A stretch of 64,000 nt of DNA from Nitrospirota bacterium (GTDB lineage: Bacteria > Nitrospirota > Nitrospiria > 2-01-FULL-66-17). This document shows positions 49,191-64,000 of the stretch, piece after piece. The stretch covers positions 1,753 through 65,752 of the forward strand of contig JACQCD010000121.1 in NCBI GenBank assembly GCA_016201825.1. The letters run 5' to 3'. The translations under genes and the position numbers were made by a program. The notes under the pieces were generated by a model. That model did not search any database. It was not told the origin of the DNA and worked only from the letters and a program-made list of their open reading frames with translations. Each line of letters opens with the position of its first letter. The stretch's first letter is position 1.

Positions 49191-51575
49191 ATGTCAATCA
49201 TGGCTCGCCATCGGTTGGACGTGGTCATCGCGGGGGCGGGCCCGGCCGGTTTGAGTGCGGCCGGCCACGCCCAGGCCAACGGCGTGTCTTACGTCCTGCT
49301 TGAGAAGACCGACCACCTCGCCGATACCGTCTTTAGCTACCAGAAACGCAAACACGTCATGTCCGAGCCGGGGCTCATCCCGCTTCGGGGGCCGCTGGCG
49401 TTTGAGGCGGGCACGCGTGAGTCCATCCTCGACGGGTGGAACCGGTTCGCGACGCAGGGCCGGTTGAACGTGTGTTACAGCCAACCCGTCACCGGGATCG
49501 TGTCACGCGACGGCGGATTCCTGGTCAACACCCCGACCGATGAGTACGAAGCGGGGAAGGTGATCCTGTCGATCGGCACGCAAGGCAACCCCCGCAAGCT
49601 CGGCGCGCCGGGCGAAGACCTCCCGCACATCACGAGCCGTCTCATCGACCCGGATGCGTTTGCCGATCAGGACATCGTGGTGGTCGGCGGCGGCGACGCG
49701 GCGATCGAGGTCGCCGTGGCGCTGTGCGAAAAGAATCGGGTCAGCATGGTGGTACGAACGCCCGAGTTCATCCGTGTGAAGGAGGCGCTCGAGCGCGAGG
49801 TGCTGGGCCGGGAGCGGGCCGGCCAGATGAAGATTTTTTACAACTCGGCGGTGAAGCGGGTCGAGCCCGGCTCGATCGAGCTCAAGACGCCGGACCGCGA
49901 CGTGGTCGTGCCGGCCGCCCACGTGATTCTCAAGATCGGCACGCAGCCGCCGCGGGCGTTCTTGGAAACCCTCGGGGTGCGGTTCCCCTCGGCGGATCGC
50001 GAAGCCCAGCCCGTCCTCAATCAGTATTACGAGTCGAGCGTGCCGGGGTTGTTCCTCATCGGCGCCGTCAGCGGGCGGCCGCTGATCAAGCTCGGCATCA
50101 ACCAGGGGTACGAGGTCATCGAGCACCTGTTGGGGCGGCCCGTCGAGCCGGCCGACGAGGACCTGCTCAAGGCCAAGCTGCCGTTCCTCCGCGGAACGGC
50201 GCGGGAGCGCATTCGCCGCGCGGCGAACGGGGTGCCGATCCTGGCCGCCGCGGACGACGAGTCGCTGCGCGAGGTGTTCCTCGCCGCCACCGTGCGGTCC
50301 TGCCGCCACGGCGAGGTGATTTTTCGGCAGAACGACTACACCGACAGCTTCCTCGCGATCCTCGACGGCCCGGTCGACATCTCCGTGGCCGCGGACGACG
50401 GCGCCGCGCGCCGGGTGGCCACGTTGTCGGCGGGGAGCTTCTTCGGCGAAATGAGCCTGATTTCCGGGCGCCGGCGGTCGGCCACGGCCACGTCGGTGGG
50501 CGAGACCCGGCTTCTCGAGATCCCGCGCAAGCCGATGCTCAAATTGGTCTACACCTCGCCCGCGGTGAGCGAGATTCTCAACCGCACGTACCTGATTCGC
50601 GCGTTTCAGAGCTATCTATTTCCTCAGGCGACCGACAACGAGTTGCGCGATCTGGCCATGACGGCGGTGGCACAGAAGCTCGAGAAGAACACGGCGGTGT
50701 TCCGCGAGGGGGAGCCGGGCGACGCGTTCTACCTGATTCGCAGCGGGATGGTGAAGATCGCCAAGGCGTCGGGCGTGAAGGAGCTGGTGTTGGCGTACCT
50801 TCCGGCGGGGCAGTACTTCGGTGAGATGGCGCTGCTCTCGGGCGAGCCGCGCAGCGCGACGGTCACGGCGATTTTCCCCACCGAGCTGATCCGCCTCGGC
50901 AAAGACGACTTCTTGCGGTTCTTGGAGGCCCGCCGCGAGTTGAAGGAGCGGATCGCGCGCGAGGCCGAGCGGCGCCGGTTGGCGACGCTCGAGGCCCAGG
51001 CGGGGACCGAGGGAGGCGGCGTGCTGGGCGAGTTGATCCGCGAGGAGGTCGTGATCGGGACCGACGTCCTTTTGATCGACGAGCATCGGTGTGTACGCTG
51101 CAACAATTGCGTCAAAGCCTGCGAGGGCGTCCACGAGGACGGTCAGGCGCGCCTCTCCCTGACCGGGACCACGTTCTACAACCTCCTGGTCCCGAACTCG
51201 TGCCGCCACTGCGAGAACCCGCTGTGCATGACCGACTGTCCCCCCGACGCGATCGCGCGCGACCCGCGCGGGGAGGTGTACATCAAGAACAACTGCATCG
51301 GGTGCGGCAACTGTGCGAAGAATTGTCCCTACGGCAACATCTTCATGGTCCATCCCAAGGCTCAGCACGGAATCCTGGGCTGGCTCAAGGCCCTCTGGCC
51401 GGGGGCCGGTGAAGAATCGGGACGATCGGTCGCCGTGAAGTGCGACCTGTGCCGGGACATCGCGGGCGGGCCGGCGTGTGTGCGGAGCTGCCCCACCGGC
51501 GCCGCGATCCGGCTCAAGCCCGAGGAATCCCGGCGGCAGATCGAGCGCCTTGTCGCGCGCGGGAGCGGCGCCTGA
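49191..51575 (+). CDS. fusion protein: TrxR-type FAD/NAD(P)H oxidoreductase (no CxxC) + two cyclic-nucleotide-binding domains + 4x[4Fe-4S] ferredoxin module
   Basis: RBS GGAGGG. VVIAGAGPAGLSAA and VVVGGGDAAIEVA. Two cNMP motifs FFGEMSLISGRRRSATA and YFGEMALLSGEPRSATV. Cys clusters CVRCNNCVKAC, CRHCENPLCMTDCP, CIGCGNCAKNCP, CDLCRD…CVRSCP. No signal peptide. Confidence 0.82.
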   Translation: MSIMARHRLDVVIAGAGPAGLSAAGHAQANGVSYVLLEKTDHLADTVFSYQKRKHVMSEPGLIPLRGPLAFEAGTRESILDGWNRFATQGRLNVCYSQPVTGIVSRDGGFLVNTPTDEYEAGKVILSIGTQGNPRKLGAPGEDLPHITSRLIDPDAFADQDIVVVGGGDAAIEVAVALCEKNRVSMVVRTPEFIRVKEALEREVLGRERAGQMKIFYNSAVKRVEPGSIELKTPDRDVVVPAAHVILKIGTQPPRAFLETLGVRFPSADREAQPVLNQYYESSVPGLFLIGAVSGRPLIKLGINQGYEVIEHLLGRPVEPADEDLLKAKLPFLRGTARERIRRAANGVPILAAADDESLREVFLAATVRSCRHGEVIFRQNDYTDSFLAILDGPVDISVAADDGAARRVATLSAGSFFGEMSLISGRRRSATATSVGETRLLEIPRKPMLKLVYTSPAVSEILNRTYLIRAFQSYLFPQATDNELRDLAMTAVAQKLEKNTAVFREGEPGDAFYLIRSGMVKIAKASGVKELVLAYLPAGQYFGEMALLSGEPRSATVTAIFPTELIRLGKDDFLRFLEARRELKERIAREAERRRLATLEAQAGTEGGGVLGELIREEVVIGTDVLLIDEHRCVRCNNCVKACEGVHEDGQARLSLTGTTFYNLLVPNSCRHCENPLCMTDCPPDAIARDPRGEVYIKNNCIGCGNCAKNCPYGNIFMVHPKAQHGILGWLKALWPGAGEESGRSVAVKCDLCRDIAGGPACVRSCPTGAAIRLKPEESRRQIERLVARGSGA

Positions 51576-52408
51576 TGTTGTTGGCCACGCCCCTGAGCGC
51601 GCGGTGGCGCCGCATATCCTGGTGGCTGCTCGTCCTGCTGACGGCGGCGTATGTGTGGGCCGCCTATCCGGACGCCGCGCACGGAGGATCCCGAGTCGGC
51701 ATCGCGTACGGGATCATCGGCTCGGCGCTCATCCTGCTCCTCCTCGCGTTCGGGATTCGCAAGCGGCGGTATCGAAGCCGGCTCGGCCGCGTCGAATCGT
51801 GGCTGCAGTCCCACGTCTACCTCGGCCTCCTCGTGGTGGTCGTCATTCTGCTGCACTCCGGCTTTCGCTTCCACGACCTGATCGCCGTGACGGCGTTCGC
51901 GCTTCTGGGCGTGGTCGTGGCGAGCGGCGTGGTCGGCGCCGTCGCGTACACGCTCGTGCCGGCGTGGCTGACCGAGGCCGAGAGCAACCTCACGCCGCAG
52001 CAGATCTCCGACCGGCTCAACCAGCTCGCCCAGTCGATGGGACGTCTGGCGTCGGGGAAGTCCGCCCCGTTCCGCGCGACCTGCACGCGCCTGCTCCGCG
52101 CGGAGCGGCCGGGCTGGTTTGCGGGGTGGCGCGTCGTCTGGTCCCGCGGCGCCGGTTCGCCGACGGGCGAGCTGGGCGGCGCGTGGCAGGCGCTTCGCGA
52201 CCAGGTCGGGCTCGAGGAGCGGGGAGATTTTGACGCGCTGCTCGTGCTGTCGCGCCAGCGACAGGACCTGCACCGGCGGTTGATCGCCCGGCAGCGGTAC
52301 AAGAACCTGATCGAGGCGTGGTTATACCTCCACGTCCCGCTGTCCGTTGCGATGCTCGTGGCCATTGCGGCGCACGTCACGGCGTTCTTCTACTACGTGG
52401 CGCCGTAG
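51575..52408 (+). CDS. 5-TM membrane protein with two H-x13-H pairs (candidate di-heme b transmembrane electron carrier)
   Basis: The ATG overlaps the previous stop (TGATG). H80/H94 in TM3 (SHVYLGLLVVVVILLHS, nt 51812 and 51854). H253/H267 in TM5 (LHVPLSVAMLVAIAAHV, nt 52331 and 52373). The Arg-rich loops fit positive-inside topology. Confidence 0.7.
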   Translation: MLLATPLSARWRRISWWLLVLLTAAYVWAAYPDAAHGGSRVGIAYGIIGSALILLLLAFGIRKRRYRSRLGRVESWLQSHVYLGLLVVVVILLHSGFRFHDLIAVTAFALLGVVVASGVVGAVAYTLVPAWLTEAESNLTPQQISDRLNQLAQSMGRLASGKSAPFRATCTRLLRAERPGWFAGWRVVWSRGAGSPTGELGGAWQALRDQVGLEERGDFDALLVLSRQRQDLHRRLIARQRYKNLIEAWLYLHVPLSVAMLVAIAAHVTAFFYYVAP

Positions 52409-52416
52409 GGTCCGAC

Positions 52417-54084
52417 GTGGCCTATCGCCTCATCAGACACGCCGACGGCCGGATCGAAACCACCGAGGTGGCGGGACCGGCGCTACGGATCGGCCGAGGC
52501 ACCAATGCCGACCTGCGGTTCGACGACACGGCGGTGGCGCTCGAACACGCCCGCATCGAACAGACCGACGGCGGGTTCCTGCTGACCGATCTGGGCGGCG
52601 TCACGGGCTGCTACGTCAACGGATCACGGGTCACGTCGACGCGCTTGGCCGGAGGGGACCGAATCGAGATCGGTCCGTTTCTGATCGACGTCACGCTGCC
52701 CCGAGGACCGGGCGAGTCGGTGGCGCTCGATGTCCGGCCGGTGGCCGGGGCGAGGGCGGCGCGCGGGGCGATCGATGCCAAGCCGATCGATTATGCCAAG
52801 GCCTACGCGCTCAACCGATGGTTTGCGAACAAGCCCCTCTTGACGCTGGTCGCGACGGCGGGGCTCGGCGCGTTGTTGAGCGGGATTCTGTGGGCGGGGA
52901 AGACCGAACTGTTCCGACCGGGCTCGGTCACGGTCGCCCATGCGCTTTTCACCAATCAGTGCGAGCGCTGCCACACGGCGTGGACCGGCGTCTCCGAGAA
53001 GGCGTGCCGGGGCTGCCACGTCCCGGCGGTCCACCACGACGACCAGGCCGATGCCCCGTCGTGTCTGGCCTGCCACGCCGAGCATCGCGGCCAAGCGGCG
53101 CTGGCCGGCGTGGCGACGCGAGACTGCGTCGCCTGCCACCGCCAGCTCCAGACCAAGGATCATTCGCCGCTTTCGTTCGCGGATCGGACCACCGACTTCG
53201 CGACCGATCATCCCGAGTTCGCGATCACCCGGGTCGTCAATGGGAAGAAGGAGCGCGTGCGATTGGACGTGCCCGGCGCGCGTCGCGCCGACGCCGCTTC
53301 GATCAAGCTCAATCACAAGGTCCATCTCAAGCCGGCTCTCAAAGGGCCCAAGGGCCCCGTCCAACTCGCGTGCCGCGACTGCCATCTTCCGGCCGAGGAC
53401 GGCGCGCGCATGGCGCCGGTGACGTACCAGGAGCGGTGCAAGGGATGCCATGAGCTGGGGTTCGACCCCCGCTTTCCAGACCGCGTCGTCCCGCACGTGC
53501 CCCCGGCCGACGTGCGCGCGTACCTCGTGGCGGAGTATACCGAGAACGCGGGCGCTTTAGTGTCGAAAGGCGGGGGGGCGGATCGGCTCGCGGGGCCGCG
53601 GTTTCCGGGGCCCGCGCGCTCGCCGTCGCTGGAGTGGGTGATGGAGCAGGTCGCCGTCGACGAGCGCCACCTGTACACCTCCGCGTGCCCCGAGTGCCAT
53701 GCGGTGCGCGCGGACGCGCGGCCGGTTCCCGAGATTGAGCCGACGCGGGTCCCCTCGTCGTGGCTGTCGCACGCGCGGTTCGCGCACCGCTCGCACGCCC
53801 AGTTGGAGTGCGGCGCCTGCCACGAAAACGTGGAGAAGAGCGCCGACACGAGCGACGTCCTGCTCCCGGGGATCGAGATCTGCCGCCGGTGCCACCGCGC
53901 GGCCGATCCGACGCCGAGGCTGCAGGCAGATCGGGCGAGCATCGACTGCGTCGCGTGTCATCGCTACCACGACGGGCCGGCCAAACCGGGGCCTGAGGGC
54001 TCGTTCACCATCCGGCGTTTGCTGGACGGAGTGGACCCCGGACGACGGGAACCGCGTCCCATGTCCGAAGGGCCTCAGACATGA
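52417..54084 (+). CDS. FHA domain - TM helix - decaheme c-type cytochrome
   Basis: GTG at 52417. FHA-like LRIGRGTNADLRFDD…HARIE…FLLTDLGG…YVNGSRV…GDRIEIG. TM LLTLVATAGLGALLSGILWAG. Ten CXXCH motifs (CERCH, CRGCH, CLACH, CVACH, CRDCH, CKGCH, CPECH, CGACH, CRRCH, CVACH). Confidence 0.82.
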   Translation: MAYRLIRHADGRIETTEVAGPALRIGRGTNADLRFDDTAVALEHARIEQTDGGFLLTDLGGVTGCYVNGSRVTSTRLAGGDRIEIGPFLIDVTLPRGPGESVALDVRPVAGARAARGAIDAKPIDYAKAYALNRWFANKPLLTLVATAGLGALLSGILWAGKTELFRPGSVTVAHALFTNQCERCHTAWTGVSEKACRGCHVPAVHHDDQADAPSCLACHAEHRGQAALAGVATRDCVACHRQLQTKDHSPLSFADRTTDFATDHPEFAITRVVNGKKERVRLDVPGARRADAASIKLNHKVHLKPALKGPKGPVQLACRDCHLPAEDGARMAPVTYQERCKGCHELGFDPRFPDRVVPHVPPADVRAYLVAEYTENAGALVSKGGGADRLAGPRFPGPARSPSLEWVMEQVAVDERHLYTSACPECHAVRADARPVPEIEPTRVPSSWLSHARFAHRSHAQLECGACHENVEKSADTSDVLLPGIEICRRCHRAADPTPRLQADRASIDCVACHRYHDGPAKPGPEGSFTIRRLLDGVDPGRREPRPMSEGPQT

Positions 54085-55619
54085 AACACTCGCCGCGAAC
54101 GTCAACCGGGAACGTGTCCGCTCTCGCGCGGATGGGGTTGCTTGCGGCGCTGGCGTTCGTCGCCGGCTGCGGCGGCGGGACGAGTGTTGATCAGAGCCTG
54201 ATCTGCGACGGGTCCGGCGCGCCGCTGTCGGCCGCCGAGGTCTCGGGCATCGTGACAAACGCCGCCTCGGCAATCGACGCGCCCGCCATGACGGTCGCCG
54301 TCGTGGACCGGAACGGGAACGTCCTCGCCGTGTATCGGCAGCCGGGCGCTTCGGCCGCGAACGACGACCTGGCCGTGTCGCTCGCGCGCACCGCCGCGTT
54401 CTTCAGCAACAACCAGGCGCCGCTCTCCTCCCGCACCGTGCGATTCATCAGCGGGATCCACTTCCCGCCGGGGATCAGCTTCACCCCTCCCGCCGCGCTG
54501 TACGGGATCGAGAATACCAATCGCGGCTGCGAACTGAACGTCACGTTCAACCCCGGCAAGGCGGTGCCGCCGGCCAAGTCGGTGGCCGGCGGGTCCTGCA
54601 ACAGCACCGACCGCAGCGGGTGCGGACGGGGGATCACGACGGGCAAGGCCGATCTCGCCGACAGCGACCCCGCGGCGGTGAACCCCGGCGGCGTGCCGCT
54701 GTTCCGCGGGTGCACGGTGGTGGGCGGCGTCGGCGTGGCCGGCGCGCCCGGCGCCCACGCCGAGTTCGCCGCGCTCGCGGGGGCCTCGGCGTTCCCGCCG
54801 AGTATCGCGCCACCCGGCATCGTGGTGATCGACGGCGTGCGCCTGCCGTTTGTCGAGCAGACCACCCAGCCGTCGGGCACGACCGCCGGGAGCGCGGCGG
54901 GCGCGTTCGTCGTCGGGCCGGTGGCCGGCGCCGGCGTCCCGGAGGGGTATCTGGCGGGGCCCGTCGCGGGGTCGCGGTTGTCGGCGGCCGAGGTGGATCG
55001 GATCGTCCAACAATCGGTCCAGACCGCCGACCGCACGCGGGCTGCAATCCGCCTCCCGATCGGCCTGCGCACGCGGATGGCGATCGCCGTCGGCGACGTG
55101 GACGGAACGATCCTCGCGCTGTACCGGATGCCAGACAGCACGGTGTTTTCCATCGATGTGGCCGTGGCCAAGGCGCGTAACGTCGTCTACTTCAGCGGGC
55201 CCGATCCCAATGCGGCGGCCGACCTCCCGGGCGTGCCCGCGGGCACGGCCGTCACCAACCGGACGATCAGCTTTGGCAGCCAACCCTTGTTCCCTCCGGG
55301 TATCGACGGCGGCAGCGGTGTCGGCCCGTTCTTCAGTCTGTTTCAGAACGATACGGCTGCGGCGTGCTCGCAGGGGAGCCAGGCGGTGAACGCCAACCAG
55401 AGCGGGATCGTCTTCTTCCCCGGGAGCCTGCCGCTGTACGCGAACGGCATCCTCGCCGGCGGCTTGGGGATCAGCGGCGACGGCGTGGAGCAGGACGACT
55501 ACGTGTCCGCGGGGGGCGCGACGGGCTTCGAATCCCCGGAAGGCATTCGAGCCGACGGCGTCTCGATCCGGGGCGTGCGCCTGCCGTTTCTGAAGTTCCC
55601 TCGGAACCCGGAGGGGTGA
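54081..55619 (+). CDS. lipoprotein with two GlcG/HbpS-like (DUF336, heme-binding/'heme-degrading') domains
   Basis: Lipobox LAFVAGC. Both halves show LSAAEV…(I/A)VAVVD/AIAVGDVDG…LAVYR/LALYRM…A(R/K)(T/A)…FFS/YFS and GG(V/L)PL(F/Y)…GG(V/L)G(V/I)(A/S)G. The ATG overlaps the previous stop. Confidence 0.7.
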   Translation: MKHSPRTSTGNVSALARMGLLAALAFVAGCGGGTSVDQSLICDGSGAPLSAAEVSGIVTNAASAIDAPAMTVAVVDRNGNVLAVYRQPGASAANDDLAVSLARTAAFFSNNQAPLSSRTVRFISGIHFPPGISFTPPAALYGIENTNRGCELNVTFNPGKAVPPAKSVAGGSCNSTDRSGCGRGITTGKADLADSDPAAVNPGGVPLFRGCTVVGGVGVAGAPGAHAEFAALAGASAFPPSIAPPGIVVIDGVRLPFVEQTTQPSGTTAGSAAGAFVVGPVAGAGVPEGYLAGPVAGSRLSAAEVDRIVQQSVQTADRTRAAIRLPIGLRTRMAIAVGDVDGTILALYRMPDSTVFSIDVAVAKARNVVYFSGPDPNAAADLPGVPAGTAVTNRTISFGSQPLFPPGIDGGSGVGPFFSLFQNDTAAACSQGSQAVNANQSGIVFFPGSLPLYANGILAGGLGISGDGVEQDDYVSAGGATGFESPEGIRADGVSIRGVRLPFLKFPRNPEG

Positions 55620-57367
55620 TGCGCGCGACGCGTCGGTGGTCCGGGGTCTTGATGGTTGGCGCATTCGTGGGACTCCTCGGCCTCGTCCCGGGGCCCGACT
55701 CAGCGGGGGCCGCCGAGGGCGACGAGGGAGAAGAGCGGCTGCCGCGACGGCCGCTCGCGCCCGTCACCGAGCCGCGCGAGCCCCTGCTCCCGCAAGAGAT
55801 GCCGGACGGCCGAGGCTTCGTGCCGCTTCCCGACCGGTGGACGATCGCGCCGCCGCCGTACGAGCTGAACGTGAAGGGGCATTGGTGGGATCCGTACAAC
55901 CAGAACCTTCTCAAGGGCGATCGGCCGATGTGGGGTCAGGACACGTTCCTCAACCTGACGCTGGCGTCGGAGACCCTCGCGGAGTACCGCGCCGTGCCGA
56001 CGCCCGGCGGCGTGAGCGCCGAGCGCGCGGGGAGCGCGGCGTTGTTTGGCGCGCGCGAGCAGGGGGCGTTCAGTCAGAACCTGATCGTGTCGGCCGACCT
56101 GTTCAAGGGCGACACGGCGTTTCGGCCGTTCGACTGGCGGGTCAAGGGCACCGTGATCGCCAACCTGAATTTCTTCGACGTCCGGGAACGGGGGATCGTC
56201 AACGTCGACGTGCGCGAGGGCGTGAACCGCCGGGATGGATTCTTTGCGCTGCAAGAGTTCTTTGTCGAGGCCAAGTACAAGGACCGCAGCCCCAACTACG
56301 ATTTCGTGTCGGTCCGGGCCGGCCTCCAGCCGTTTTCGAGCGACTTCCGGGGTTTCGTGTTCACGGACACGAACCTGGGCGTGCGCCTCTTCGGCAACGC
56401 CGAGTCCAACCGCGACCAGTATAACCTCGCGTTCTTCGACCAGCGAGAGAAAGAGACTAATAGCGGCTTGAACCGCTTCGAGCGTCGCGGCCAAGAGGTG
56501 TTCGTGGGCAACGTCTACCGCCAGGACTTCCTGGTGCCGGGCTATACCGCGCAGGTGAGCGCGCACTACCTGCTCGACGAGGAGAGCCTGCACTTCGACG
56601 AGAACGGCTTTCTGGCCCGGCCGGACGCCGTCGGTGTGTTCAAACCCCACGAGATCCGGGCCGCGTACTACGGGTGGGCGGGATCAGGGCACGCGGGGCG
56701 CGTCAACGTCGAGCACGCCGCGTACTACGTCGTGGGCGAGGACCGGCGCAACCCGATCGCCGGGCGCGAGGTCGATATCCGAGCCGGGATGGCGGCGCTG
56801 GAAGTGTCGTACGATCACGACTGGTTCCGGCCCAAGGTCTCATACTTCTACGCCTCCGGCGACGGCAACCCGACCGACGATACCGCTCGGGGGTTCGACG
56901 CGATCTTCGACAACCCGGCGTTCGCGGGCGGACCGTTCAGCTTTTGGAACCGACTTGGCCTCCGCCTGGCGGGCACCGGCGTGGCGCTGGTCAACCGCGG
57001 GAGCGTGCTGCCCGACCTTCGCAGCAGCAAGGAGGAAGGGCAGCCCAACTTCGTCAACCCCGGCATTCATCTCGTCAGCGCGGGTGTCGATGTGGATGTC
57101 ACGCCGAAACTCAAAGGCGTCCTCAACGCCAACTACCTGCGGTTCGACCAGACCGAGGCGCTCGAGTTCCTGCTCTTTCAGGCACCGATCCACAAGGACA
57201 TCGGGTGGGACCTCGGCGCCGGCTTGCGGTATCGGCCGTTGTTGAGCAATAACATCGTGATCCTCGCCGGCGTCGCGGCGTTCATTCCCGGCGAAGGATT
57301 CAAGGACATCTACGAATCGGGCCGCGTGTTGCAGATGGCGTTCACCACGGCGACGCTGGTGTTCTAG
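55619..57367 (+). CDS. outer-membrane beta-barrel (porin-like) protein
   Basis: Signal peptide GVLMVGAFVGLLGLVPGPDSAGA. Alternating beta-strand pattern with many aromatic girdle residues. The C-terminus …TTATLVF ends in Phe. The ATG overlaps the previous stop (TGATG). Confidence 0.72.
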   Translation: MRATRRWSGVLMVGAFVGLLGLVPGPDSAGAAEGDEGEERLPRRPLAPVTEPREPLLPQEMPDGRGFVPLPDRWTIAPPPYELNVKGHWWDPYNQNLLKGDRPMWGQDTFLNLTLASETLAEYRAVPTPGGVSAERAGSAALFGAREQGAFSQNLIVSADLFKGDTAFRPFDWRVKGTVIANLNFFDVRERGIVNVDVREGVNRRDGFFALQEFFVEAKYKDRSPNYDFVSVRAGLQPFSSDFRGFVFTDTNLGVRLFGNAESNRDQYNLAFFDQREKETNSGLNRFERRGQEVFVGNVYRQDFLVPGYTAQVSAHYLLDEESLHFDENGFLARPDAVGVFKPHEIRAAYYGWAGSGHAGRVNVEHAAYYVVGEDRRNPIAGREVDIRAGMAALEVSYDHDWFRPKVSYFYASGDGNPTDDTARGFDAIFDNPAFAGGPFSFWNRLGLRLAGTGVALVNRGSVLPDLRSSKEEGQPNFVNPGIHLVSAGVDVDVTPKLKGVLNANYLRFDQTEALEFLLFQAPIHKDIGWDLGAGLRYRPLLSNNIVILAGVAAFIPGEGFKDIYESGRVLQMAFTTATLVF

Positions 57368-57388: not shown

Positions 57389-60300
57389 ATGCGTGACGGT
57401 GACATGAAGACGCGATCGTGGCGGCCGACCTTGACGATCGTCCTGGTCCTCGCCCTGACCGCGGTGGGAGCGTCCCGTTTGTTCTCCGGGGAGCCCTCGA
57501 AAGACCTTCCCGACCTTCACCGGCAACCGGAGACGCTGGCCGACGAGAAGAGCGAGGGGTGTCGGGGATGCCACGAGGGGATCGAGCCGATGCACGCGTC
57601 CCCCGCCGTGAAGCTCGCCTGCGTCGACTGCCACGGCGGAAACGGCGACGCCAAGATCGCGACCGGCGTGGAGCGCGGCTCCGACGAGTACGAGGGCGTC
57701 AAGCGGCAGGCGCACGTTGCGCCCCGGTTCCCCGCGCGGTGGGCGGGGCCTGACGGGCGCTACCGCGCGGCCAACCCCGAGGGCAGCTACACGCTGCTGT
57801 TGGACGAGTCGCCCGAATTCGTGCGCTTCGTCAACCCGGGGGATCTTCGTGTGGCCGTGGAGACGTGTGGGCGCTGTCACGACGACGAGGTCGCGGCCGT
57901 CCGGCGGAGCACGATGACGACGTCGGCGATCTTCTGGGGCGCCGCGGGATACGCGAACGGGATCGTGTCGCCCAAGCGCTCGATCTTCGGCGAGGGCTAC
58001 GGTCGCGACGGCACGCCGCAACTGATCCGTCCCGCCGCGCCGCCCACCGCGGAGGAGAAGCGCAAGGGCGCGTTGCCGTTCCTGGTGCCGCTGCCTCGCT
58101 GGGAGATCATCCAGCCCGGCGATAACTTCCGGGCCTTCGAGGACGGCGGTCTGCTGCAACCGTCGGCCTTCCCCGAGATCGGCAATCCCAACCCACTCGA
58201 CGAACCCGGCAAGCCCGACATCCGCTTGAGCAGTCGCGGCCTCGGCACAGGCCTGCGGGTGAGCATCCCGGTCCTCAACATCCACAAGACGCGGCTGAAC
58301 GACCCGCACCTCTCGTTCCTCGGGACCAACGACCACCCGGGGGACTACCGCTCCAGCGGCTGTACCGCGTGCCACGTCGTCTACGCCAACGACCGCGACC
58401 CTGCGCACTCGGGGCCCTATGCCGAGTTCGGCCACCTGGGCCGCAGCGCGACCGACGACCCCACGATCTCCAAGAACGAATCGGGCCACCCCATCCGCCA
58501 CCGACTCACCCGCGCCGTGCCGTCCAGCCAGTGCATGACCTGCCACATGCACCAGCCGAACTCGTTTATCAATACGTATTACGGGTATAACCTGTGGGAC
58601 TACGAGACCGACGGCGGGTTCCTGTGGCCCGCGAAGCAGCAGTACCCCACCGAAGCCGATCGGCGCCTGATCCTCGACTCCAACCCCGACGGCGCGTCGG
58701 TGCGCGGGCTCTGGTCGGACCCCGCCTTCCTCGCGCGGGTGAGCGAGCTCAATCCCAAGCTGCAGCAGACCCAGTTCGCGGACTACCACGGACACGGCTG
58801 GATCTTCCGCGCCGTGTACAAGCGAGACCGCAAGGGCAATTTGTTGGACGCGGAGGACAAGCCGGTCGCGTTCGAGGACCCCAAGCGCTTCGAGAAGGCG
58901 GTTCACCTCGCGGACATTCATATGGAGAAGGGCATGCACTGCGTGGACTGCCACTTCACGGTGGACAGCCACGGCAACGGTACGCTCTACGGCGAGTACG
59001 GTCACGCCATCGAGATCGCCTGTGAGGATTGTCATGGCACGACCAGGGTGCGGGCCACGCTCCGGACGTCGGGCCCAGCGTCGCCCGCGGGCGGCACCGA
59101 TCTGCTCATCAAGACCACGCCGTTCGGCCGCCCGCAGTTCGCGTGGCGCGAGGGCAAGCTGTTCCAGCGCTCGATGCTGAAGCGGGATCTGGAGTGGGAG
59201 GTTGTCCAGGTGCTCGACTCGATCACGCCGGGCAACGCCCACTACAGCGAGAAGTCCCGCCTGGCGAAGACGATCCAGCGGGACGGAAAAACGTGGGGCC
59301 GCGGCGACGTCGACGACGCGTCGCTCGCCCACTCCAACCAGAAGATGACGTGCTACGCGTGTCATTCGTCGTGGATGACGTCATGTTTTGGCTGCCACCT
59401 GCCGCAGCAGGCGAACCAAAAATCCGACAAGCACCACTTCGAGAGCGGCACGACCCGGCAGTACAGCTCGTACGACATGCAGGTGGTGCGGGACGACGTC
59501 TTCATGCTCGGGATCAACGGGACGGTGGAAGGGCACAAGGTCGCGCCCGTCCGGTCGTCCAGCGCCGTGATGCTCAGCTCGACCAACCTGAACCGGCAGC
59601 GGTTCTACATCCAGCAGCCCACGATCTCCGCTCCGGGATTCAACGGCCAGGCGTTCAACCCCCACGTGCCGCACACCGTGCGCGCGCGCGAAACCAAAGG
59701 GTGCGCCGACTGCCACGTCTCCGCGCAGAACGACAACAATGCGTGGATGGCGCAACTCCTCCTGCTGGGGACCAAGTTCGTCAACTTCATGGGCCGCTTC
59801 GCGTGGGTCGCGGAAGGGGAGGCGGGCCTCGAAGCCGTCGGGGTCACCGAGTGGGAGGAGCCGCAGGCCGTGCTCGGGAGTTTTCTGCACCGCCTGGCCT
59901 ACCCTGACGCGTGGGCCGACCACCAAAAGCGCCGCCTCGAATTATCCGAAGCCCACCACCACGAGGGGGGCGGGGAGGCTCGGAGCCTGGTCAAGCGCGG
60001 GGAGTACCTCTATGCTGCGCTCGGACCCAAGGGCTTCGAGGTCTTCGACGTCGCGAACGTGGACAACAAGGACGCCTCCGAACGGATCGTGACGGCTCCG
60101 GTGTCGCCGCTCGGCCAGCGCACGTACGTCCGCACCTCGTATGCGACGGCCGTGGCGCTGCCGACGAACATGCCGATCGCGCCCTACCGAAAAGGGCTCC
60201 CGGAGAACGAGGAACAGGCGTGGCACCCGCTCTACCACTACGCCTACGTGACCGATCGCGACGAGGGGCTGATCGTCGTCAACGTGGACACGTTGGCCGA

Positions 60301-61156
60301 CCGGGACCCCACGAACAACTTCCTCGAGCGCGCCGCCACGTTCAACCCCGACGGTGAACTGAACGGCGCCCGCAACCTGGCGATCGCGGGGCGGTACGTG
60401 TACGTGGCCTGCGAGCGGGGCTTGGCCGTGGTGGACATCGATGATCCGCTGCACCCGCGCATCGCCGCGCGGCTGCACGACGTCGCTCGGCCCACGTCGG
60501 TGGCGATCCAGTTCCGGTACGCGTTCATGACCGACGCCGAGGGACTCACGGTGGCGGACGTCACCGACCCCCGCGCGCCGCGGGTGGTCGCGCGCCTGCC
60601 GATCGCCGAGGCCAAGAGCGTCTACGTGTCGCGCACCTACGCCTACGTGGCGGCCGGCCGGACGGGCCTGGTGATCGTCGACGTCGAGCGGCCCGATCGG
60701 CCGCGGATCGACCAGGTCTACACGGCCGACGGGCGGATCGCCGACGCGCGCGACGTGAAGGTCGCCTCGACGAACGCGAGCCTGTTCGCGTACGTCGCCG
60801 ACGGTGCGGGTGGACTCAAGGTCATCCAGCTCACGTCGCCCGAGACCATGCCGGGGTATCTCGGGTTCAGCCCGCGGCCGGAGCCGCGGTTGATCGCCAC
60901 GCGCCGCACGCACGGCCCGGCGCTCGCCGTGGCCGAAGGGCTGGACCGCGACCGCGCCGTGGACGAGAGCGGCCATCAAATCGCCGTGTTCAACCGGATC
61001 GGGGCGCGGCCGTTCCGGTCGGACGAGATGCAGCGCTTGTATCTGAAGGATGGCCGTCTGTACCAGGTCGAGAATACGCCGCCCGCGGCGCCCCAGGAAC
61101 CGCCGAAGGCGGACCGCAAGGGGCGGGCGGGATTGCCAACAAGGGGCGAACGATGA
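57389..61156 (+). CDS. 1255-aa secreted decaheme c-type cytochrome fused to a C-terminal LVIVD-repeat beta-propeller
   Basis: RBS GGAGGA. Signal TLTIVLVLALTAVGA. Ten CXXCH motifs between nt ~57560 and ~59716. Six LVIVD-like repeats at nt ~60000-60845 (GFEVFDVA, GLIVVNVD, GLAVVDID, GLTVADVT, GLVIVDVE, GLKVIQLT). Confidence 0.82.
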   Translation: MRDGDMKTRSWRPTLTIVLVLALTAVGASRLFSGEPSKDLPDLHRQPETLADEKSEGCRGCHEGIEPMHASPAVKLACVDCHGGNGDAKIATGVERGSDEYEGVKRQAHVAPRFPARWAGPDGRYRAANPEGSYTLLLDESPEFVRFVNPGDLRVAVETCGRCHDDEVAAVRRSTMTTSAIFWGAAGYANGIVSPKRSIFGEGYGRDGTPQLIRPAAPPTAEEKRKGALPFLVPLPRWEIIQPGDNFRAFEDGGLLQPSAFPEIGNPNPLDEPGKPDIRLSSRGLGTGLRVSIPVLNIHKTRLNDPHLSFLGTNDHPGDYRSSGCTACHVVYANDRDPAHSGPYAEFGHLGRSATDDPTISKNESGHPIRHRLTRAVPSSQCMTCHMHQPNSFINTYYGYNLWDYETDGGFLWPAKQQYPTEADRRLILDSNPDGASVRGLWSDPAFLARVSELNPKLQQTQFADYHGHGWIFRAVYKRDRKGNLLDAEDKPVAFEDPKRFEKAVHLADIHMEKGMHCVDCHFTVDSHGNGTLYGEYGHAIEIACEDCHGTTRVRATLRTSGPASPAGGTDLLIKTTPFGRPQFAWREGKLFQRSMLKRDLEWEVVQVLDSITPGNAHYSEKSRLAKTIQRDGKTWGRGDVDDASLAHSNQKMTCYACHSSWMTSCFGCHLPQQANQKSDKHHFESGTTRQYSSYDMQVVRDDVFMLGINGTVEGHKVAPVRSSSAVMLSSTNLNRQRFYIQQPTISAPGFNGQAFNPHVPHTVRARETKGCADCHVSAQNDNNAWMAQLLLLGTKFVNFMGRFAWVAEGEAGLEAVGVTEWEEPQAVLGSFLHRLAYPDAWADHQKRRLELSEAHHHEGGGEARSLVKRGEYLYAALGPKGFEVFDVANVDNKDASERIVTAPVSPLGQRTYVRTSYATAVALPTNMPIAPYRKGLPENEEQAWHPLYHYAYVTDRDEGLIVVNVDTLADRDPTNNFLERAATFNPDGELNGARNLAIAGRYVYVACERGLAVVDIDDPLHPRIAARLHDVARPTSVAIQFRYAFMTDAEGLTVADVTDPRAPRVVARLPIAEAKSVYVSRTYAYVAAGRTGLVIVDVERPDRPRIDQVYTADGRIADARDVKVASTNASLFAYVADGAGGLKVIQLTSPETMPGYLGFSPRPEPRLIATRRTHGPALAVAEGLDRDRAVDESGHQIAVFNRIGARPFRSDEMQRLYLKDGRLYQVENTPPAAPQEPPKADRKGRAGLPTRGER

Positions 61157-62523
61157 TGCACAACAGACGAGTCAGGTGGGGGGTGGCGGCGATGGTCGCA
61201 TGCGCGGCGGCGCTGGCGTCTATGGGTCTCGGTCCCGCTCGGGCCGCGGACAATCCGGCGCCGAGCGCCAACGAGAAGCCGCGCCCCGGCCAATACCTGG
61301 GCGCGCCCTCGTGCGCGTCCAGCCACTGCCACGGAAGCGCGCAGCCGCGAACGGCGTACGACGTGCGGCAGAACGAGTACCTCATCTGGCTCAAGCAGGA
61401 CAAGCACACCAAGACCTACAGCGTCCTCTCGAACGCCCTTTCGAAGCGCATCGCCAAGAACATGAAATTGAAGCGGCCGCCGCAAGAGGAGGCGCGGTGC
61501 CTGGACTGTCACGGCCTTGCCGTGGCCGAGGAGCTTCAGGCTCGCCCCGTGGACCTCGCCGACGGGATCTCGTGCGAGGGCTGCCACGGACCGGCCGGAG
61601 GATGGCTGGCGGGGCACACCGAGGAGGGATGGACGCACCAGCGCTCGGTCGAGGCCGGCATGACCGATTTGCGCGATCTCGTGACGCGGACGGAGGTGTG
61701 CTTGGGGTGTCACCTCGGCAAGACCGGCACCGGGGTGGACCACGAGCTGCTCGCGGCCGGCCATCCTGATCTCGTATTCGAGTTGGTCAACTTCAGCGCA
61801 GCGATGCCGGCGCACTGGACGCCGGTGTCCCGGAAGAAAGCCCGCGCGGACCGCCCCGATCGCAACACCGCGCGCGCATGGGCGGTGGGGCAGGTGGTGC
61901 AGTTCCGCGAATCGATGCACCTGACCGCGCGCCGCGCCCAGTCGGGCCGGTGGCCGGACTTCGCCGAGATGGAGTGCACCTCCTGCCACCACGCGCTCAA
62001 CGGCGGCAAGGAGCGGCAGCTCCGGGGGTATTCGCTGGCGGCCGGGCTTCCGGGTACCAGCCCCGCGCGCGTCGCCGTCTTCCGCCACGTGCTCGACACG
62101 TTCTCGCCGGACGACCGCGGTCCGCTGCTCGTGAGCGTGGACCGACTTGCGGCCTCGATCTCGCGCCTGTTTACGCCGCACGAGACGGTGGCGGTCCAGG
62201 CGAACGTGCTCGGGGACGAGACGCGCGGGGTGTTGGACCGGGTCGGGTCCACGGAGATCGACGACGCCTTGACCCGCGTGATGCTGCTGCGGGTGGCCGG
62301 CGACGGAGTCTTTTTGAACAGAGCCGACTTGAGGTCGGCGAAGCAGGTGGCGCTGGCGATCAACGCGCTGGCCGGCGCGCTGGCCGAACACGATCCCAAG
62401 TGGGCCCGCCCGGAGGTCGCGAAGACGATCGACGCGCTGTACGACGACGTCTCCGGCAAAGGTGACTATGACCCACAACGGTTCGTCAAGCACCTCGCGG
62501 CGTTTCGGCGATCGGTGAAGTGA
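61153..62523 (+). CDS. secreted multiheme cytochrome (c554-like N-terminal half, helical C-terminal half)
   Basis: Signal AAMVACAAALASMGLGPARA. CLDCH, CEGCH, CLGCH, CTSCH plus an atypical SCASSHCH (CX4CH) where family members normally carry the first CXXCH. The ATG overlaps the previous stop. Confidence 0.75.
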   Translation: MMHNRRVRWGVAAMVACAAALASMGLGPARAADNPAPSANEKPRPGQYLGAPSCASSHCHGSAQPRTAYDVRQNEYLIWLKQDKHTKTYSVLSNALSKRIAKNMKLKRPPQEEARCLDCHGLAVAEELQARPVDLADGISCEGCHGPAGGWLAGHTEEGWTHQRSVEAGMTDLRDLVTRTEVCLGCHLGKTGTGVDHELLAAGHPDLVFELVNFSAAMPAHWTPVSRKKARADRPDRNTARAWAVGQVVQFRESMHLTARRAQSGRWPDFAEMECTSCHHALNGGKERQLRGYSLAAGLPGTSPARVAVFRHVLDTFSPDDRGPLLVSVDRLAASISRLFTPHETVAVQANVLGDETRGVLDRVGSTEIDDALTRVMLLRVAGDGVFLNRADLRSAKQVALAINALAGALAEHDPKWARPEVAKTIDALYDDVSGKGDYDPQRFVKHLAAFRRSVK

Positions 62524-63328: not shown

Positions 63329-64000
63329 GCGCGCTCCTTTTTGAGTCCCGTGACCTCGTAGACCCGCACGGTCTTGGCCCGTCCCTTGACCGCCAGCTCG
63401 CCCAGATCTTTGAACGCCGCGCGGCCGATCTTCTTGGGCGCTTTGCGGCGATCCGGGTGCCGGATCAGCGCGGTCCGGGCGCGGCGTTCGTCGACCGGCA
63501 CTTCGCGGGCCTCGACCAAGTGCTCGATCGCCCGGTACGTGGAGTCGGTGATGAGGATGCCCGCGTTGTGTTGTCTGGTCAGCGACTCCACGCGCGCGCC
63601 GAGATTGACGTTGTCGCCGATCAGCGTGTAGTCCATCTTCTTGCCCTCGGCGCCCATGTTGCCCACGACCATCTCGCCGGTGTTGATCCCGATCCCCGCA
63701 TCCAGCGGCTCGCGCCCCTCGGCGCGCCACTTCGCCTGCAGCTCGGCGAGCCGGTGTCGCATGTGCAACGCGCAGCGGACAGCCAGCTCGGCGTGGTTGG
63801 GTTGGTCGATGGGCGCGCCCCAGAATACCATGATCGCGTCGCCCACGAACTTGTCCAGGGTCCCGTTCCAGTGGAAGATCACATCGGTCATCGCCTGGAG
63901 ATATTCGTTGAGGGCGGCGACGACCTCCTCCGGCTGGTGGGCCTCGGAGAACGCCGTGAAGCCGCGCACGTCGGAGAAGAGCACCGTCAGCTCCTTACGC
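63325..64000 (-). CDS. class III adenylate/guanylate cyclase catalytic domain (5' end beyond the right edge of the window)
   Basis: …TVLFSDVRGFTAFSE…LDKFVGDAIMVFWGAP…GINTGEMVVGNMG…DYTLIGDNVNLGARVES. The stop overlaps the phosphodiesterase start (ATGA). Confidence 0.85.
   Translation of the reverse strand, partial: RKELTVLFSDVRGFTAFSEAHQPEEVVAALNEYLQAMTDVIFHWNGTLDKFVGDAIMVFWGAPIDQPNHAELAVRCALHMRHRLAELQAKWRAEGREPLDAGIGINTGEMVVGNMGAEGKKMDYTLIGDNVNLGARVESLTRQHNAGILITDSTYRAIEHLVEAREVPVDERRARTALIRHPDRRKAPKKIGRAAFKDLGELAVKGRAKTVRVYEVTGLKKERA

What the first reader, a model, noticed from the sequence alone, without database searches (positions are those of the whole stretch)
52417..54084. Cytoplasmic FHA domain tethered through one TM helix to a periplasmic decaheme cytochrome
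The N-terminal ~95 aa match the FHA pattern (LRIGRG…DLRFDD…HARIE…FLLTDLG…YVNGSRV…GDRIEIG). A single TM helix follows, and then come ten CXXCH motifs. FHA domains are phospho-threonine readers of Ser/Thr-kinase signalling, so physical fusion to a multiheme electron carrier is an unusual signalling/respiration hybrid. By eye the canonical pThr-contacting Ser (VSRxH, here VALEH) and Asn (S/TxNG, here VTGC) appear substituted. The domain may therefore be a degenerate FHA used as a protein-protein adaptor, for example to the upstream flavo-FeS protein.
Basis: partly seen in the sequence, partly recalled or inferred. Interest (0 to 1): 0.75.

Follow-up and report, generated by a model that had tools for sequence, protein, structure and literature searches.

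The report
FHA-anchored decaheme cytochrome in redox operon
This gene really does encode a cytoplasmic FHA domain joined through one membrane helix to a ten-heme periplasmic cytochrome. It belongs to a widespread, uncharacterised three-protein membrane module that probably carries electrons from cytoplasmic NAD(P)H across the inner membrane under cyclic-nucleotide control.

Summary
ORF 52417-54084 (555 aa; NCBI MBI3608625.1, a Nitrospirota MAG) has three parts:
- a true FHA fold (Pfam E=1.3e-14; AF2 pLDDT above 90; Foldseek TM 0.7-0.84 to GarA/OdhI);
- one TM helix;
- ten CXXCH motifs plus exactly ten further invariant His, which implies ten bis-His hemes.

The canonical SxxH Ser is Ala and the NG Asn is Thr in about 80% of roughly 100 homologues, while Arg and His are kept. 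Long-form homologues carry a second, fully canonical FHA at the C-terminus.

The gene sits in a translationally coupled operon. Its core trio is conserved in 78 of 84 related loci across many phyla:
- a cNMP-binding FeS protein;
- a 5-TM protein with two invariant i/i+14 His pairs, which I infer is a di-heme b;
- the TM-anchored decaheme.

FHA occurs only where a TrxR-like flavoprotein (Pyr_redox) module is present. It is absent from 55 loci where a NuoG-like FeS module replaces that domain. At least four natural fusions join FHA, cytochrome and Pyr_redox in one polypeptide.

Best reading: a cNMP-gated transmembrane electron conduit running from NAD(P)H through flavin, FeS and heme b to heme c, with FHA as a non-canonical docking or control module for the flavoprotein.

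The architecture has been noted before (Gallionellaceae 2023; Ferrigenium preprint 2026). Its function is unknown.

The parts
52417..54084 (+). FHA-TM-decaheme cytochrome c gene (555 aa; MBI3608625.1)
52417..52716 (+). Cytoplasmic FHA domain, residues 1-100 (Pfam core 24-86 = 52486-52674). Non-canonical pocket: R27 and H44 are kept; the canonical Ser is A41 and the canonical Asn is T63. G61 and C65 are specific to this protein and its closest relative.
52831..52899 (+). Single TM helix (residues 139-161), acting as an N-in/C-out signal anchor
   Evidence: Topology is fixed by the need for periplasmic heme attachment, and by homologues with a second TM followed by cytoplasmic FHA or Fer4-Pyr_redox domains.
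52960..53970 (+). Periplasmic decaheme domain: ten CXXCH motifs plus ten invariant distal His (H175, 206, 223, 265, 300, 303, 360, 457, 460, 518)
49191..51575 (+). Cytoplasmic partner (794 aa from M35 of the longest ORF). It comprises a TrxR/YpdA-like NAD(P)H flavoprotein domain, two cNMP-binding domains with intact PBC motifs, and a HycB-like ferredoxin domain with four Cys motifs.
51575..52408 (+). 5-TM membrane protein (277 aa; MBI3608624.1). Invariant His pairs H80/H94 and H253/H267 make it an inferred di-heme cytochrome b.
54081..55619 (+). Lipoprotein with two HbpS-like domains (lipobox AFVAGC); its start overlaps the stop of the decaheme gene (ATGA)
55619..57367 (+). 582-aa secreted protein with a signal peptide and a C-terminal ...TLVF; putative outer-membrane beta-barrel
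   Evidence: inference; no Pfam or PDB match
57389..61156 (+). 1255-aa secreted decaheme cytochrome with LVIVD beta-propeller repeats; weak similarity to Geobacter ExtM
61153..62523 (+). 456-aa cytochrome c554-like multiheme protein (4 CXXCH plus 1 variant)
63325..64000 (-). Class III adenylate/guanylate cyclase gene, convergent with the operon. Its N-terminal part lies beyond the window.

Best explanation
The gene encodes the membrane-anchored, periplasm-facing heme-wire subunit of a three-protein inner-membrane redox module.

The components:
1. A cytoplasmic subunit with a TrxR/YpdA-like NAD(P)H-flavin domain, two PKA-R-like cyclic-nucleotide-binding domains and a HycB-like four-cluster ferredoxin domain.
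2. A 5-TM protein with two stacked b hemes, held by His80/His253 on the cytoplasmic side and His94/His267 on the periplasmic side.
3. This protein: a cytoplasmic FHA domain, one TM helix and ten bis-His c hemes.

The most likely electron path is NAD(P)H to FAD, then to the [4Fe-4S] clusters, then to 2 heme b, then to 10 heme c. From there electrons would pass to the co-transcribed lipoprotein, the porin-like protein, the LVIVD decaheme and the c554-like cytochrome. That makes it an outward, cNMP-gated conduit that need not use the quinone pool.

The FHA is a genuine FHA fold whose peptide-binding loops are conserved but non-canonical (Ser to Ala, Asn to Thr). I infer that it acts as a largely phospho-independent, GarA-like docking or control module for the flavoprotein end of the cytoplasmic subunit.

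Shown: the domain identities, the topology logic, the heme and His counts, the operon structure, conservation of the trio, the FHA/Pyr_redox co-occurrence and the fusions.

Inferred: b-heme binding, the electron path and its direction, the FHA partner and phospho-independence.
For: Domain identity and fold are established.

Operon: start and stop codons overlap at four junctions (TGATG, ATGA, GTGATG, ATGATG), and the FHA-decaheme gene follows the membrane-protein gene after an 8-nt gap.

Conservation: the trio is found in 78-79 of 84 related loci from Binatia, Thermoanaerobaculia, Terriglobia, Proteobacteria, Bdellovibrionota, Planctomycetota and Chloroflexota.

Membrane protein:
- Four His are invariant in 52/52 close homologues and in 75-78 of 78 loci of all types.
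- Both pairs have i/i+14 spacing, on parallel in-to-out helices flanking a cytoplasmic insert.
- There are recurrent sub-threshold Pfam hits to the two-heme clan: Ni_hydr_CYTB in 43/52 members, Ferric_reduct in 38/52 and DUF4405 in 25/52.

Cytoplasmic subunit: it resembles YpdA/TrxR, PKA-R and HycB3/4, with intact GxGxxG/A motifs, PBC motifs and Cys motifs.

FHA:
- Pocket substitutions are family-wide. At the Ser position Ala occurs 74 times, Glu 11 and Ser 3. At the Asn position Thr occurs 79 times, Ala 12 and Asn 1. Arg is kept in 95/97 and His in 97/98.
- The C-terminal FHA of 40 long-form homologues is fully canonical.
- FHA co-occurs with Pyr_redox in 17 loci, plus 1 with a divergent FHA-like domain. 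It is absent from all 55 loci where a NuoG-like 2Fe-2S/4Fe-4S module replaces Pyr_redox.
- Single-polypeptide fusions of FHA(x3-5), TM, 6-10 hemes, TM and Pyr_redox (with a Fer4 domain detected in L013) occur in L013, L014, P0281 and P0312.
- The nearest single-FHA relatives (49% identity or more) are all 9-10-heme proteins, apart from one 237-aa entry without CXXCH motifs that is probably a fragment.

Signalling context: cyclases lie next to the cluster in 39/83 loci, including the window.

Precedent (established knowledge): GarA/OdhI FHA domains bind metabolic enzymes without a phospho-ligand.
Against: - No heme-b evidence goes beyond the His pattern. Foldseek, a PDB profile search and hhalign against E. 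coli MsrQ and YodB were all non-significant.
- The FHA/Pyr_redox association rests on only about two independent evolutionary transitions plus the fusions.
- In the fusion proteins Pyr_redox is already covalently tethered, yet several mostly canonical FHAs persist. That argues for regulation rather than simple docking.
- Ser/Thr kinases and an FHA-GAF-cyclase sit directly upstream in L010, and a kinase sits upstream in L013. The phosphate-binding Arg27 is retained. Phospho-dependent binding is therefore not excluded.
- The direction of electron flow is unknown. The Ferrigenium authors favour inward flow from Fe(II) oxidases to quinone.
Confidence: 0.5

Rival explanations
1. Canonical phospho-signalling switch. 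The FHA reads a pThr placed by a Ser/Thr kinase on the flavo-FeS subunit, on the membrane subunit's cytoplasmic insert, or on another protein. In this way it gates assembly or electron flow.
For: FHA is by default a pThr reader. Arg27, His44 and, in most homologues, Ser61 are kept. Long forms and fusions carry fully canonical FHAs. Pkinase-TPR genes lie immediately upstream in L010 and L013, and L010 also has an FHA-GAF-cyclase.
Against: The N-terminal FHA lacks the SxxH Ser and the NG Asn family-wide, and the window protein also lacks Ser61 and Thr65. A kinase motif was found in only 4 of 85 sequences and nowhere in the 64-kb window. The window protein has no canonical second FHA.
Confidence: 0.2
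2. Quinol-linked module. The 5-TM protein is a quinol/quinone-reactive cytochrome b, as in CbcL, HydC or FdnI. The decaheme then exchanges electrons with the quinone pool. The cNMP-flavo-FeS protein is a redox or cNMP sensor or an auxiliary donor rather than the main electron source.
For: The best sub-threshold family for the membrane protein is Ni_hydr_CYTB, whose members are quinone-reactive. The Ferrigenium authors propose a link to quinone. Type C loci replace the NAD(P)H flavoprotein with a NuoG-like FeS module that has no obvious NAD(P)H site.
Against: A cytoplasmic polyferredoxin is strictly conserved and translationally coupled to the b-type subunit in 78/84 loci. Fusions place Pyr_redox (with a Fer4 domain in L013) on the same chain as the cytochrome. 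No quinone-site motif could be identified.
Confidence: 0.2
3. Assembly scaffold. The FHA works like the FHA-like cytoplasmic domains of T3SS SctD (YscD/PrgH) or T7SS EssC. It would oligomerise or recruit cytoplasmic factors to organise a trans-envelope cytochrome machine, with no direct role in redox control.
For: The layout is the same: an FHA-like domain, a single TM and a periplasmic domain. Pfam Yop-YscD_cpl scores 42.6 bits, above its cutoff. Proteobacterial homologues match only this model, and weakly. The operon encodes a putative trans-envelope system.
Against: The FHA model scores higher than YscD_cpl, and the best structural matches are GarA/OdhI, not SctD. FHA is dispensable in 55 type C loci that keep the same downstream envelope genes.
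Confidence: 0.1

Closest known systems
Ferrigenium straubiae 'NHC' nonaheme cytochrome (bioRxiv 10.64898/2026.01.22.701106) and the Gallionellaceae 'Forkhead-associated protein' with 10 CXXCH (PMC10734462)
   Same: Both have a cytosolic FHA, one TM helix and 9-10 periplasmic hemes. Both are encoded next to a 5-TM protein with no annotation and a [4Fe-4S] protein. Function is unknown.
   Different: The host phylum differs (Nitrospirota MAG versus Betaproteobacteria) and so do the flanking genes (nirK and SHP there; HbpS-like, porin-like, LVIVD-MHC and c554-like here). Those papers do not report the His pairs, the Pyr_redox link, the fusions or the non-canonical pocket.
Transmembrane redox complexes of sulfate reducers (TmcABCD, HmcABCDEF)
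   Same: The logic is the same: a periplasmic c3-type multiheme cytochrome, a membrane cytochrome b and a cytoplasmic FeS protein move electrons across the inner membrane. There are weak NCBIfam hits to HmcA and QrcA.
   Different: There is no HdrD-like CCG domain. The cytoplasmic subunit carries flavin and cNMP-binding domains. The cytochrome is TM-anchored and carries an FHA. The subunits are not orthologous.
NOX / ferric-reductase-domain proteins and MsrQ
   Same: A cytoplasmic NAD(P)H-flavin module feeds two stacked b hemes held by two His pairs (about 13 residues apart) on two parallel TM helices.
   Different: Here there are separate polypeptides, five rather than six TM helices, and FeS clusters interposed. 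The acceptor is a decaheme c rather than O2, Fe or MsrP. No significant sequence or fold match was found.
GarA/OdhI (actinobacterial FHA regulators)
   Same: These are the closest FHA domains by both sequence and structure. They are a precedent for an FHA that binds metabolic enzymes directly through its pThr-binding surface without a phospho-ligand.
   Different: GarA is soluble, keeps the canonical Ser/Asn pocket and is switched by its own phosphorylated N-terminus. This FHA is membrane-tethered and lacks those residues.
T3SS SctD (YscD/PrgH) and T7SS EssC
   Same: A cytoplasmic non-phospho-binding FHA-like domain, TM segment(s) and extracytoplasmic domain(s) in a trans-envelope machine.
   Different: The periplasmic domain here is a heme wire rather than ring-building motifs, and there is no secretion-system context.
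CymA/NapC/NirT, CbcL, ImcH, MtrA/DmsE
   Same: These are inner-membrane or periplasmic multiheme entry points to extracellular electron transfer. CymA also has a single TM anchor.
   Different: There are no Pfam or NCBIfam matches to these families. None of them has FHA or a dedicated cNMP-flavo-FeS partner.

Membership tests
FHA domain (Pfam PF00498, SMAD/FHA fold) | Profile match above the gathering threshold | tested here: met
   54.8 bits against a cutoff of 20.7, E=1.3e-14
FHA domain (Pfam PF00498, SMAD/FHA fold) | Beta-sandwich fold superposable on solved FHA domains | tested here: met
   AF2 pLDDT 90-98 over residues 1-110; Foldseek target TM-scores 0.70-0.84 to GarA/OdhI/Rv0020c
Canonical pThr-reading FHA | Conserved Gly-Arg and His (Rad53 G69/R70/H88) | tested here: met
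   G26, R27 and H44 are present; in the family Arg is 95/97 and His 97/98
Canonical pThr-reading FHA | Phosphate-contacting Ser of SxxH (Rad53 S85) | tested here: not met
   A41. In the family: Ala 74, Glu 11, Ser 3
Canonical pThr-reading FHA | Peptide-backbone-contacting Asn of the NG motif (Rad53 N107) | tested here: not met
   T63. In the family: Thr 79, Ala 12, Asn 1
Canonical pThr-reading FHA | Binds pThr peptides | not testable with these tools
   Needs ITC or peptide arrays
Multiheme cytochrome c (c3/c7-like electron-transfer type) | Multiple CXXCH motifs, each with a distal His ligand | tested here: met
   10 CXXCH plus 10 other invariant His in 54 sequences. Cytochrome_C7 scores 43.2 bits against a cutoff of 24.8.
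Multiheme cytochrome c (c3/c7-like electron-transfer type) | Heme domain exported to the periplasm | tested here: met
   A single signal-anchor TM. Homologues have a second TM followed by cytoplasmic FHA or Fer4-Pyr_redox domains, which fixes an in-out-in topology. This is inference from sequence, not experiment.
NapC/NirT/CymA quinol dehydrogenases | Match to the NapC/NirT tetraheme family | tested here: not met
   No such Pfam or NCBIfam hit at E<=0.01
MtrA/DmsE decaheme family | Match to TIGR03508 decahem_SO | tested here: not met
   No hit for this protein
FHA-MHC family noted in Gallionellaceae/Ferrigenium | FHA + 1 TM + 9-10 hemes, next to a 5-TM protein and a 4Fe-4S protein | tested here: met
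   The architecture and neighbours match the description
FHA-MHC family noted in Gallionellaceae/Ferrigenium | Sequence homology to the published proteins | not tested
No Gallionellaceae appear among the best 80 loci.
Two-heme transmembrane cytochrome b clan (for the neighbouring 277-aa protein) | Two His pairs about 13 residues apart on two TM helices | tested here: met
   H80/H94 and H253/H267 are invariant
Two-heme transmembrane cytochrome b clan (for the neighbouring 277-aa protein) | Significant profile or fold similarity to a member family | tested here: inconclusive
   Only sub-threshold Pfam hits. Foldseek, hhalign and the PDB profile search were negative.
Tmc/Hmc transmembrane redox complexes | Cytoplasmic HdrD-like CCG-domain FeS subunit | tested here: not met
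   No CCG domain among the Pfam hits of the cytoplasmic subunit. The resemblance is by analogy only.

The most novel reading that the evidence does not exclude
The trio defines a new, widespread class of inner-membrane entry module for periplasmic or extracellular electron transfer. It would be a NOX-like NAD(P)H:multiheme-cytochrome oxidoreductase that bypasses the quinone pool: flavin, then FeS, then di-heme b, then decaheme c. Second messengers would gate it directly, through cNMP binding to the FeS subunit. In the flavoprotein version a neofunctionalised FHA would add phospho-independent (or atypically phospho-dependent) control of the NAD(P)H input.
Probability: 0.3. Interest if true: 0.8.

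Novelty: new variant of a known kind. Interest (0 to 1): 0.6.

Why it matters
Inner-membrane entry points to extracellular electron transfer are known for only a few model organisms (CymA, ImcH, CbcL). This module is present in abundant, mostly uncultured soil and groundwater lineages, including Acidobacteriota, Binatia, Nitrospirota and the iron-oxidising Gallionellaceae.

If it is a cNMP-gated NAD(P)H-to-cytochrome conduit, three things follow:
- It would be a new route for dumping or importing reducing power.
- It would give a direct mechanistic link between second-messenger signalling and respiration.
- It would be a natural example of an FHA domain repurposed away from pThr reading.

The three architectures (split, fused, FHA-less) provide ready-made controls for experiments.

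Tried and rejected
- A Foldseek search of the membrane-protein model against the PDB found nothing below E=1.
- hhalign of its family profile against E. coli MsrQ and YodB was non-significant. A PDB profile search gave only coiled-coil noise.
- PDB sequence searches with the decaheme domain and with the 582-aa putative barrel found no relatives.
- The first genome scan, with a 54-sequence alignment, failed for lack of a conserved stretch. It was repeated with 14 sequences.
- phmmer of the FHA domain against 1.84 billion representatives was dominated by multi-FHA proteins. Only the single-stretch hits were informative.
- Three look-ups could not extend the window to see the cyclase N-terminus.
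- Literature searches for LVIVD plus multiheme, and for cNMP plus FHA plus EET, found nothing relevant.
- Rfam found no RNA families in the window.
- Rejected ideas:
  - an internal start downstream of the FHA, excluded by aligned homologue N-termini;
  - inverted topology, excluded by the heme-attachment requirement and by in-out-in homologues;
  - membership of the NapC/CymA or MtrA/DmsE families, for which there are no profile hits.
Full report
**1. Observation**

The ORF at 52417-54084 (+) is real and encodes 555 aa. It starts at a GTG 8 nt after the stop of the upstream gene. More than 40 homologues begin at the aligned position (M-x-Y/F...), so the FHA segment is translated and the internal-start refutation fails.

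Evidence for the three parts:
- **FHA.** Pfam FHA scores 54.8 bits (cutoff 20.7, E=1.3e-14) over residues 24-86. A PDB sequence search returns GarA, OdhI, Rv1747 and Rv0020c at about 1e-10. An AlphaFold2 model built on 54 homologues has pLDDT 90-98 for residues 1-110. The top 50 Foldseek PDB matches are all FHA domains, with target TM-scores of 0.70-0.84 for the GarA/OdhI/Rv0020c domains at the top.
- **TM helix.** One helix spans residues 139-161.
- **Hemes.** Ten CXXCH motifs are present, and all 20 Cys after the FHA lie in them. None of 20,000 shuffles gave more than two motifs. Beyond the motif histidines, exactly ten further His are invariant in 54 sequences (H175, 206, 223, 265, 300, 303, 360, 457, 460, 518). 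This fits ten bis-His electron-transfer hemes rather than a catalytic site.

The protein is NCBI MBI3608625.1, 'FHA domain-containing protein', from a Nitrospirota MAG.

**2. The FHA pocket**

Against GarA, VSRRH becomes VALEH and GSLNGT becomes GGVTGC. This is a family property, not a quirk of one protein. Across about 98 N-terminal FHA domains:

| Position | Canonical residue | Family count |
|---|---|---|
| 27 | GR Arg | kept in 95/97 |
| 44 | His | kept in 97/98 |
| 41 | SxxH Ser | Ala 74, Glu 11, Ser 3 |
| 63 | NG Asn | Thr 79, Ala 12, Asn 1 |

The replaced residues and the neighbouring loop residues are themselves strongly conserved. The surface is therefore specialised, not decayed.

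Forty long-form homologues (about 740-790 aa) add a second TM helix and a C-terminal FHA that is fully canonical (IGRD...SK/RRH...GSTNGT). One protein can thus carry both kinds. The window protein has only the non-canonical FHA. It also deviates at two further conserved positions (Ser61 to Gly, Thr65 to Cys). A 94%-identical protein from an independent assembly shares these changes.

A whole-library phmmer search shows that the closest single-FHA relatives (49% identity or more) are all 9-10-heme proteins, apart from one 237-aa entry without CXXCH motifs that is probably a fragment.

**3. Context in the window**

The gene is third in a tightly packed, same-strand operon. Start and stop codons overlap at four junctions, and one junction has an 8-nt gap.

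- **49191-51575.** A 794-aa cytoplasmic protein.
  - Residues 8-294 resemble the YpdA/TrxR-type NAD(P)H flavoproteins.
  - Residues 350-590 resemble the tandem cNMP-binding domains of PKA regulatory subunits.
  - Residues 627-782 resemble the HycB3/HycB4 polyferredoxins.
  - The FAD and NAD(P)H glycine motifs, both phosphate-binding cassettes and the Cys motifs are intact.
- **51575-52408.** A 277-aa protein with five TM helices and a helical cytoplasmic insert.
- **52417-54084.** The FHA-decaheme.
- **54081-55619.** A lipoprotein with two HbpS-like domains.
- **55619-57367.** A secreted 582-aa protein ending in ...TLVF; probably an outer-membrane barrel (inference).
- **57389-61156.** A secreted decaheme with LVIVD propeller repeats and weak similarity to Geobacter ExtM.
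- **61153-62523.** A c554-like multiheme protein.
- **63325 to beyond 64000 (-).** A class III nucleotide cyclase gene converges on the operon and runs off the window.

**4. The membrane protein**

It has no Pfam family above threshold and is annotated as hypothetical. It has 331 detected homologues.

Four His are invariant in 52/52 close relatives and in 75-78 of 78 loci of all types. They form two i/i+14 pairs: H80/H94 in TM3 and H253/H267 in TM5.

The strongly basic TM2-TM3 loop and the long insert before TM5 place both helices running in-to-out. H80 would then pair with H253 near the cytoplasm, and H94 with H267 near the periplasm. This is the classical arrangement for two stacked b hemes in cytochrome b, NOX and FRD proteins (inference plus established knowledge).

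Individual members give recurrent but sub-threshold hits to the two-heme clan: Ni_hydr_CYTB in 43/52, Ferric_reduct in 38/52 and DUF4405 in 25/52. Foldseek, hhalign against E. coli MsrQ and YodB, and a PDB profile search gave nothing significant. The assignment is therefore probable, not proven.

**5. Comparative genomics**

A scan of one genome per species found 136 relatives. The 80 kept are all MAGs: Binatia, Thermoanaerobaculia, Terriglobia/Bryobacterales, Methylomirabilota, Bdellovibrionota, several Alpha- and Gammaproteobacteria, Planctomycetota and Limnocylindria. The trio of cNMP-FeS protein, membrane protein and decaheme is present in 78-79 of 84 loci. The downstream HbpS-like, barrel-like, LVIVD-MHC and c554-like genes are frequent but more mobile.

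Three architectures exist:

| Type | Cytoplasmic protein | Cytochrome gene |
|---|---|---|
| A (window) | Pyr_redox, cNMPx2, Fer4 | FHA, TM, 10 hemes, with or without a further TM and FHA |
| B | cNMPx2, Fer4 | One 1330-1435-aa fusion: FHAx3, TM, 10 hemes, TM, Pyr_redox (a Fer4 domain was detected in L013) |
| C | 2Fe-2S / NuoG-like FeS, cNMPx3, Fer4 | TM, 10 hemes, no FHA |

All three types include the 5-TM membrane protein.

FHA and Pyr_redox occur together in 17 loci, plus one with a divergent FHA-like domain. In the 55 NuoG-type loci neither FHA nor Pyr_redox was detected. No mixed case was found.

Type B is seen in L013 and L014. Two further fusions (P0281, P0312) have 6 hemes. These fusions also fix the topology as in-out-in.

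One caveat applies. A neighbour-joining tree of the heme domain shows only about two independent FHA-state transitions, so the perfect correlation carries limited statistical weight.

**6. Signalling context**

- A cyclase lies within the fetched flanks (up to 10 kb) in 39 of 83 loci (33/63 FHA-less and 6/20 FHA-bearing, including the window). This matches the intact cNMP-binding domains.
- A Ser/Thr-kinase motif is near only 4 of 85 sequences and was not found in the window's 64 kb.
- Where kinases are present they are telling. L010 has FHA-GAF-cyclase and Pkinase-TPR genes directly upstream. L013 has Pkinase-TPR. L003 has a DUF4388-FHA protein.

**7. Mechanism**

I commit to a cNMP-gated transmembrane conduit. 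The path would run from NAD(P)H to FAD, then to the four [4Fe-4S] clusters, then to two b hemes, then to ten c hemes, and on to the envelope cytochromes.

The N-terminal FHA would be a non-canonical, probably phospho-independent docking or control module for the flavoprotein end. This resembles the way GarA/OdhI FHA domains bind enzymes without a phospho-ligand.

- Shown: domains, counts, conservation, co-occurrence and fusions.
- Inferred: heme b, the path, its direction and the FHA partner.

Overall confidence is about 0.5. The main rivals are:
- a true pThr switch (0.2);
- a quinol-linked module in which the b subunit talks to the quinone pool (0.2);
- a T3SS-SctD-like scaffold role (0.1).

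**8. Comparison and novelty**

The architecture is not unrecorded.
- A Gallionellaceae pangenome table lists a 'Forkhead-associated protein' with 10 CXXCH in 27 genomes (PMC10734462).
- A 2026 preprint on Ferrigenium straubiae describes a nonaheme cytochrome with a cytosolic FHA next to a 5-TM protein and a [4Fe-4S] protein. It states that the combination had not been reported before and leaves the function open.

Other literature searches found nothing further.

The closest systems by function are Tmc/Hmc-type transmembrane redox complexes and NOX/FRD proteins. Membership fails for Tmc/Hmc, which need a CCG domain that is absent here. For the two-heme cytochrome b clan (NOX/FRD) the fold and profile tests were inconclusive. 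Membership also fails for NapC/CymA and MtrA/DmsE.

I rate this a new variant of a known kind. It is a new, uncharacterised form of transmembrane FeS, heme b and multiheme c complex. This window adds a Nitrospirota member. The analysis adds four things:
- the di-heme-b inference;
- the three architectures;
- the FHA/Pyr_redox link and the fusions;
- the family-wide non-canonical pocket, contrasted with canonical second FHAs.

Noticed in passing
window 63325-64000 (-): A class III adenylate/guanylate cyclase gene converges on the operon, and its N-terminal part runs off the window. Similar cyclases lie within the fetched flanks (up to 10 kb) of the cluster in 39 of 83 related loci. This matches the two intact cNMP-binding domains of the upstream FeS protein.
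   Followed up: partly
L013 4328-8320; L014 14014-18321; proteins P0281, P0312: Natural single-polypeptide fusions of 1236-1435 aa. Their order is several FHA domains (three by Pfam in L013 and L014), a TM helix, 6-10 hemes, a TM helix and a Pyr_redox_3 flavoprotein (a Fer4 domain was detected in L013). In L013 and L014 an extra FHA-less decaheme paralogue lies next to the fusion.
   Followed up: partly
L010 2721-6526: In a Thermoanaerobaculia MAG, an FHA-GAF-cyclase gene and a Ser/Thr-kinase-TPR gene sit directly upstream of the cluster on the same strand. This suggests a chain from kinase to FHA-cyclase to cNMP to the FeS subunit.
   Followed up: partly
homologues P0063-P0120 (about 740-790 aa), e.g. 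L003 10001-12310: Long forms carry a second TM helix and a fully canonical C-terminal FHA in addition to the non-canonical N-terminal one. L003 also has a DUF4388(PatA_N)-FHA gene upstream.
   Followed up: partly
window 54081-55619: A 512-aa lipoprotein (lipobox AFVAGC) with two HbpS-like (heme-binding/degrading, GlcG-like) domains. It is translationally coupled to the decaheme gene and conserved in 47 of 84 loci. Its role in the conduit is unexplained.
   Followed up: no
window 57389-61156: A 1255-aa secreted decaheme fused to LVIVD beta-propeller repeats. It gives sub-cutoff NCBIfam hits to Geobacter ExtM, ExtN and ExtO (selenite/tellurite-reduction operon cytochromes).
   Followed up: no
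window 1-30000: G+C is lower and more variable (0.55-0.64 in most 2-kb windows) than in the operon (0.66-0.71). Few ORFs with high GC3 were found between about 5 and 22 kb.
   Followed up: no
window 55364 vs 55619; 49089 vs 49191; 51440 vs 51575: The longest-ORF starts overlap upstream genes. Homologue lengths and the NCBI record support the downstream starts, which give start-stop overlaps of 1-4 nt typical of translational coupling.
   Followed up: yes
window 39547-41056 (-): A T2SSE/PilT-like ATPase gene next to a DUF6812 gene. It is unrelated to the finding.
   Followed up: no
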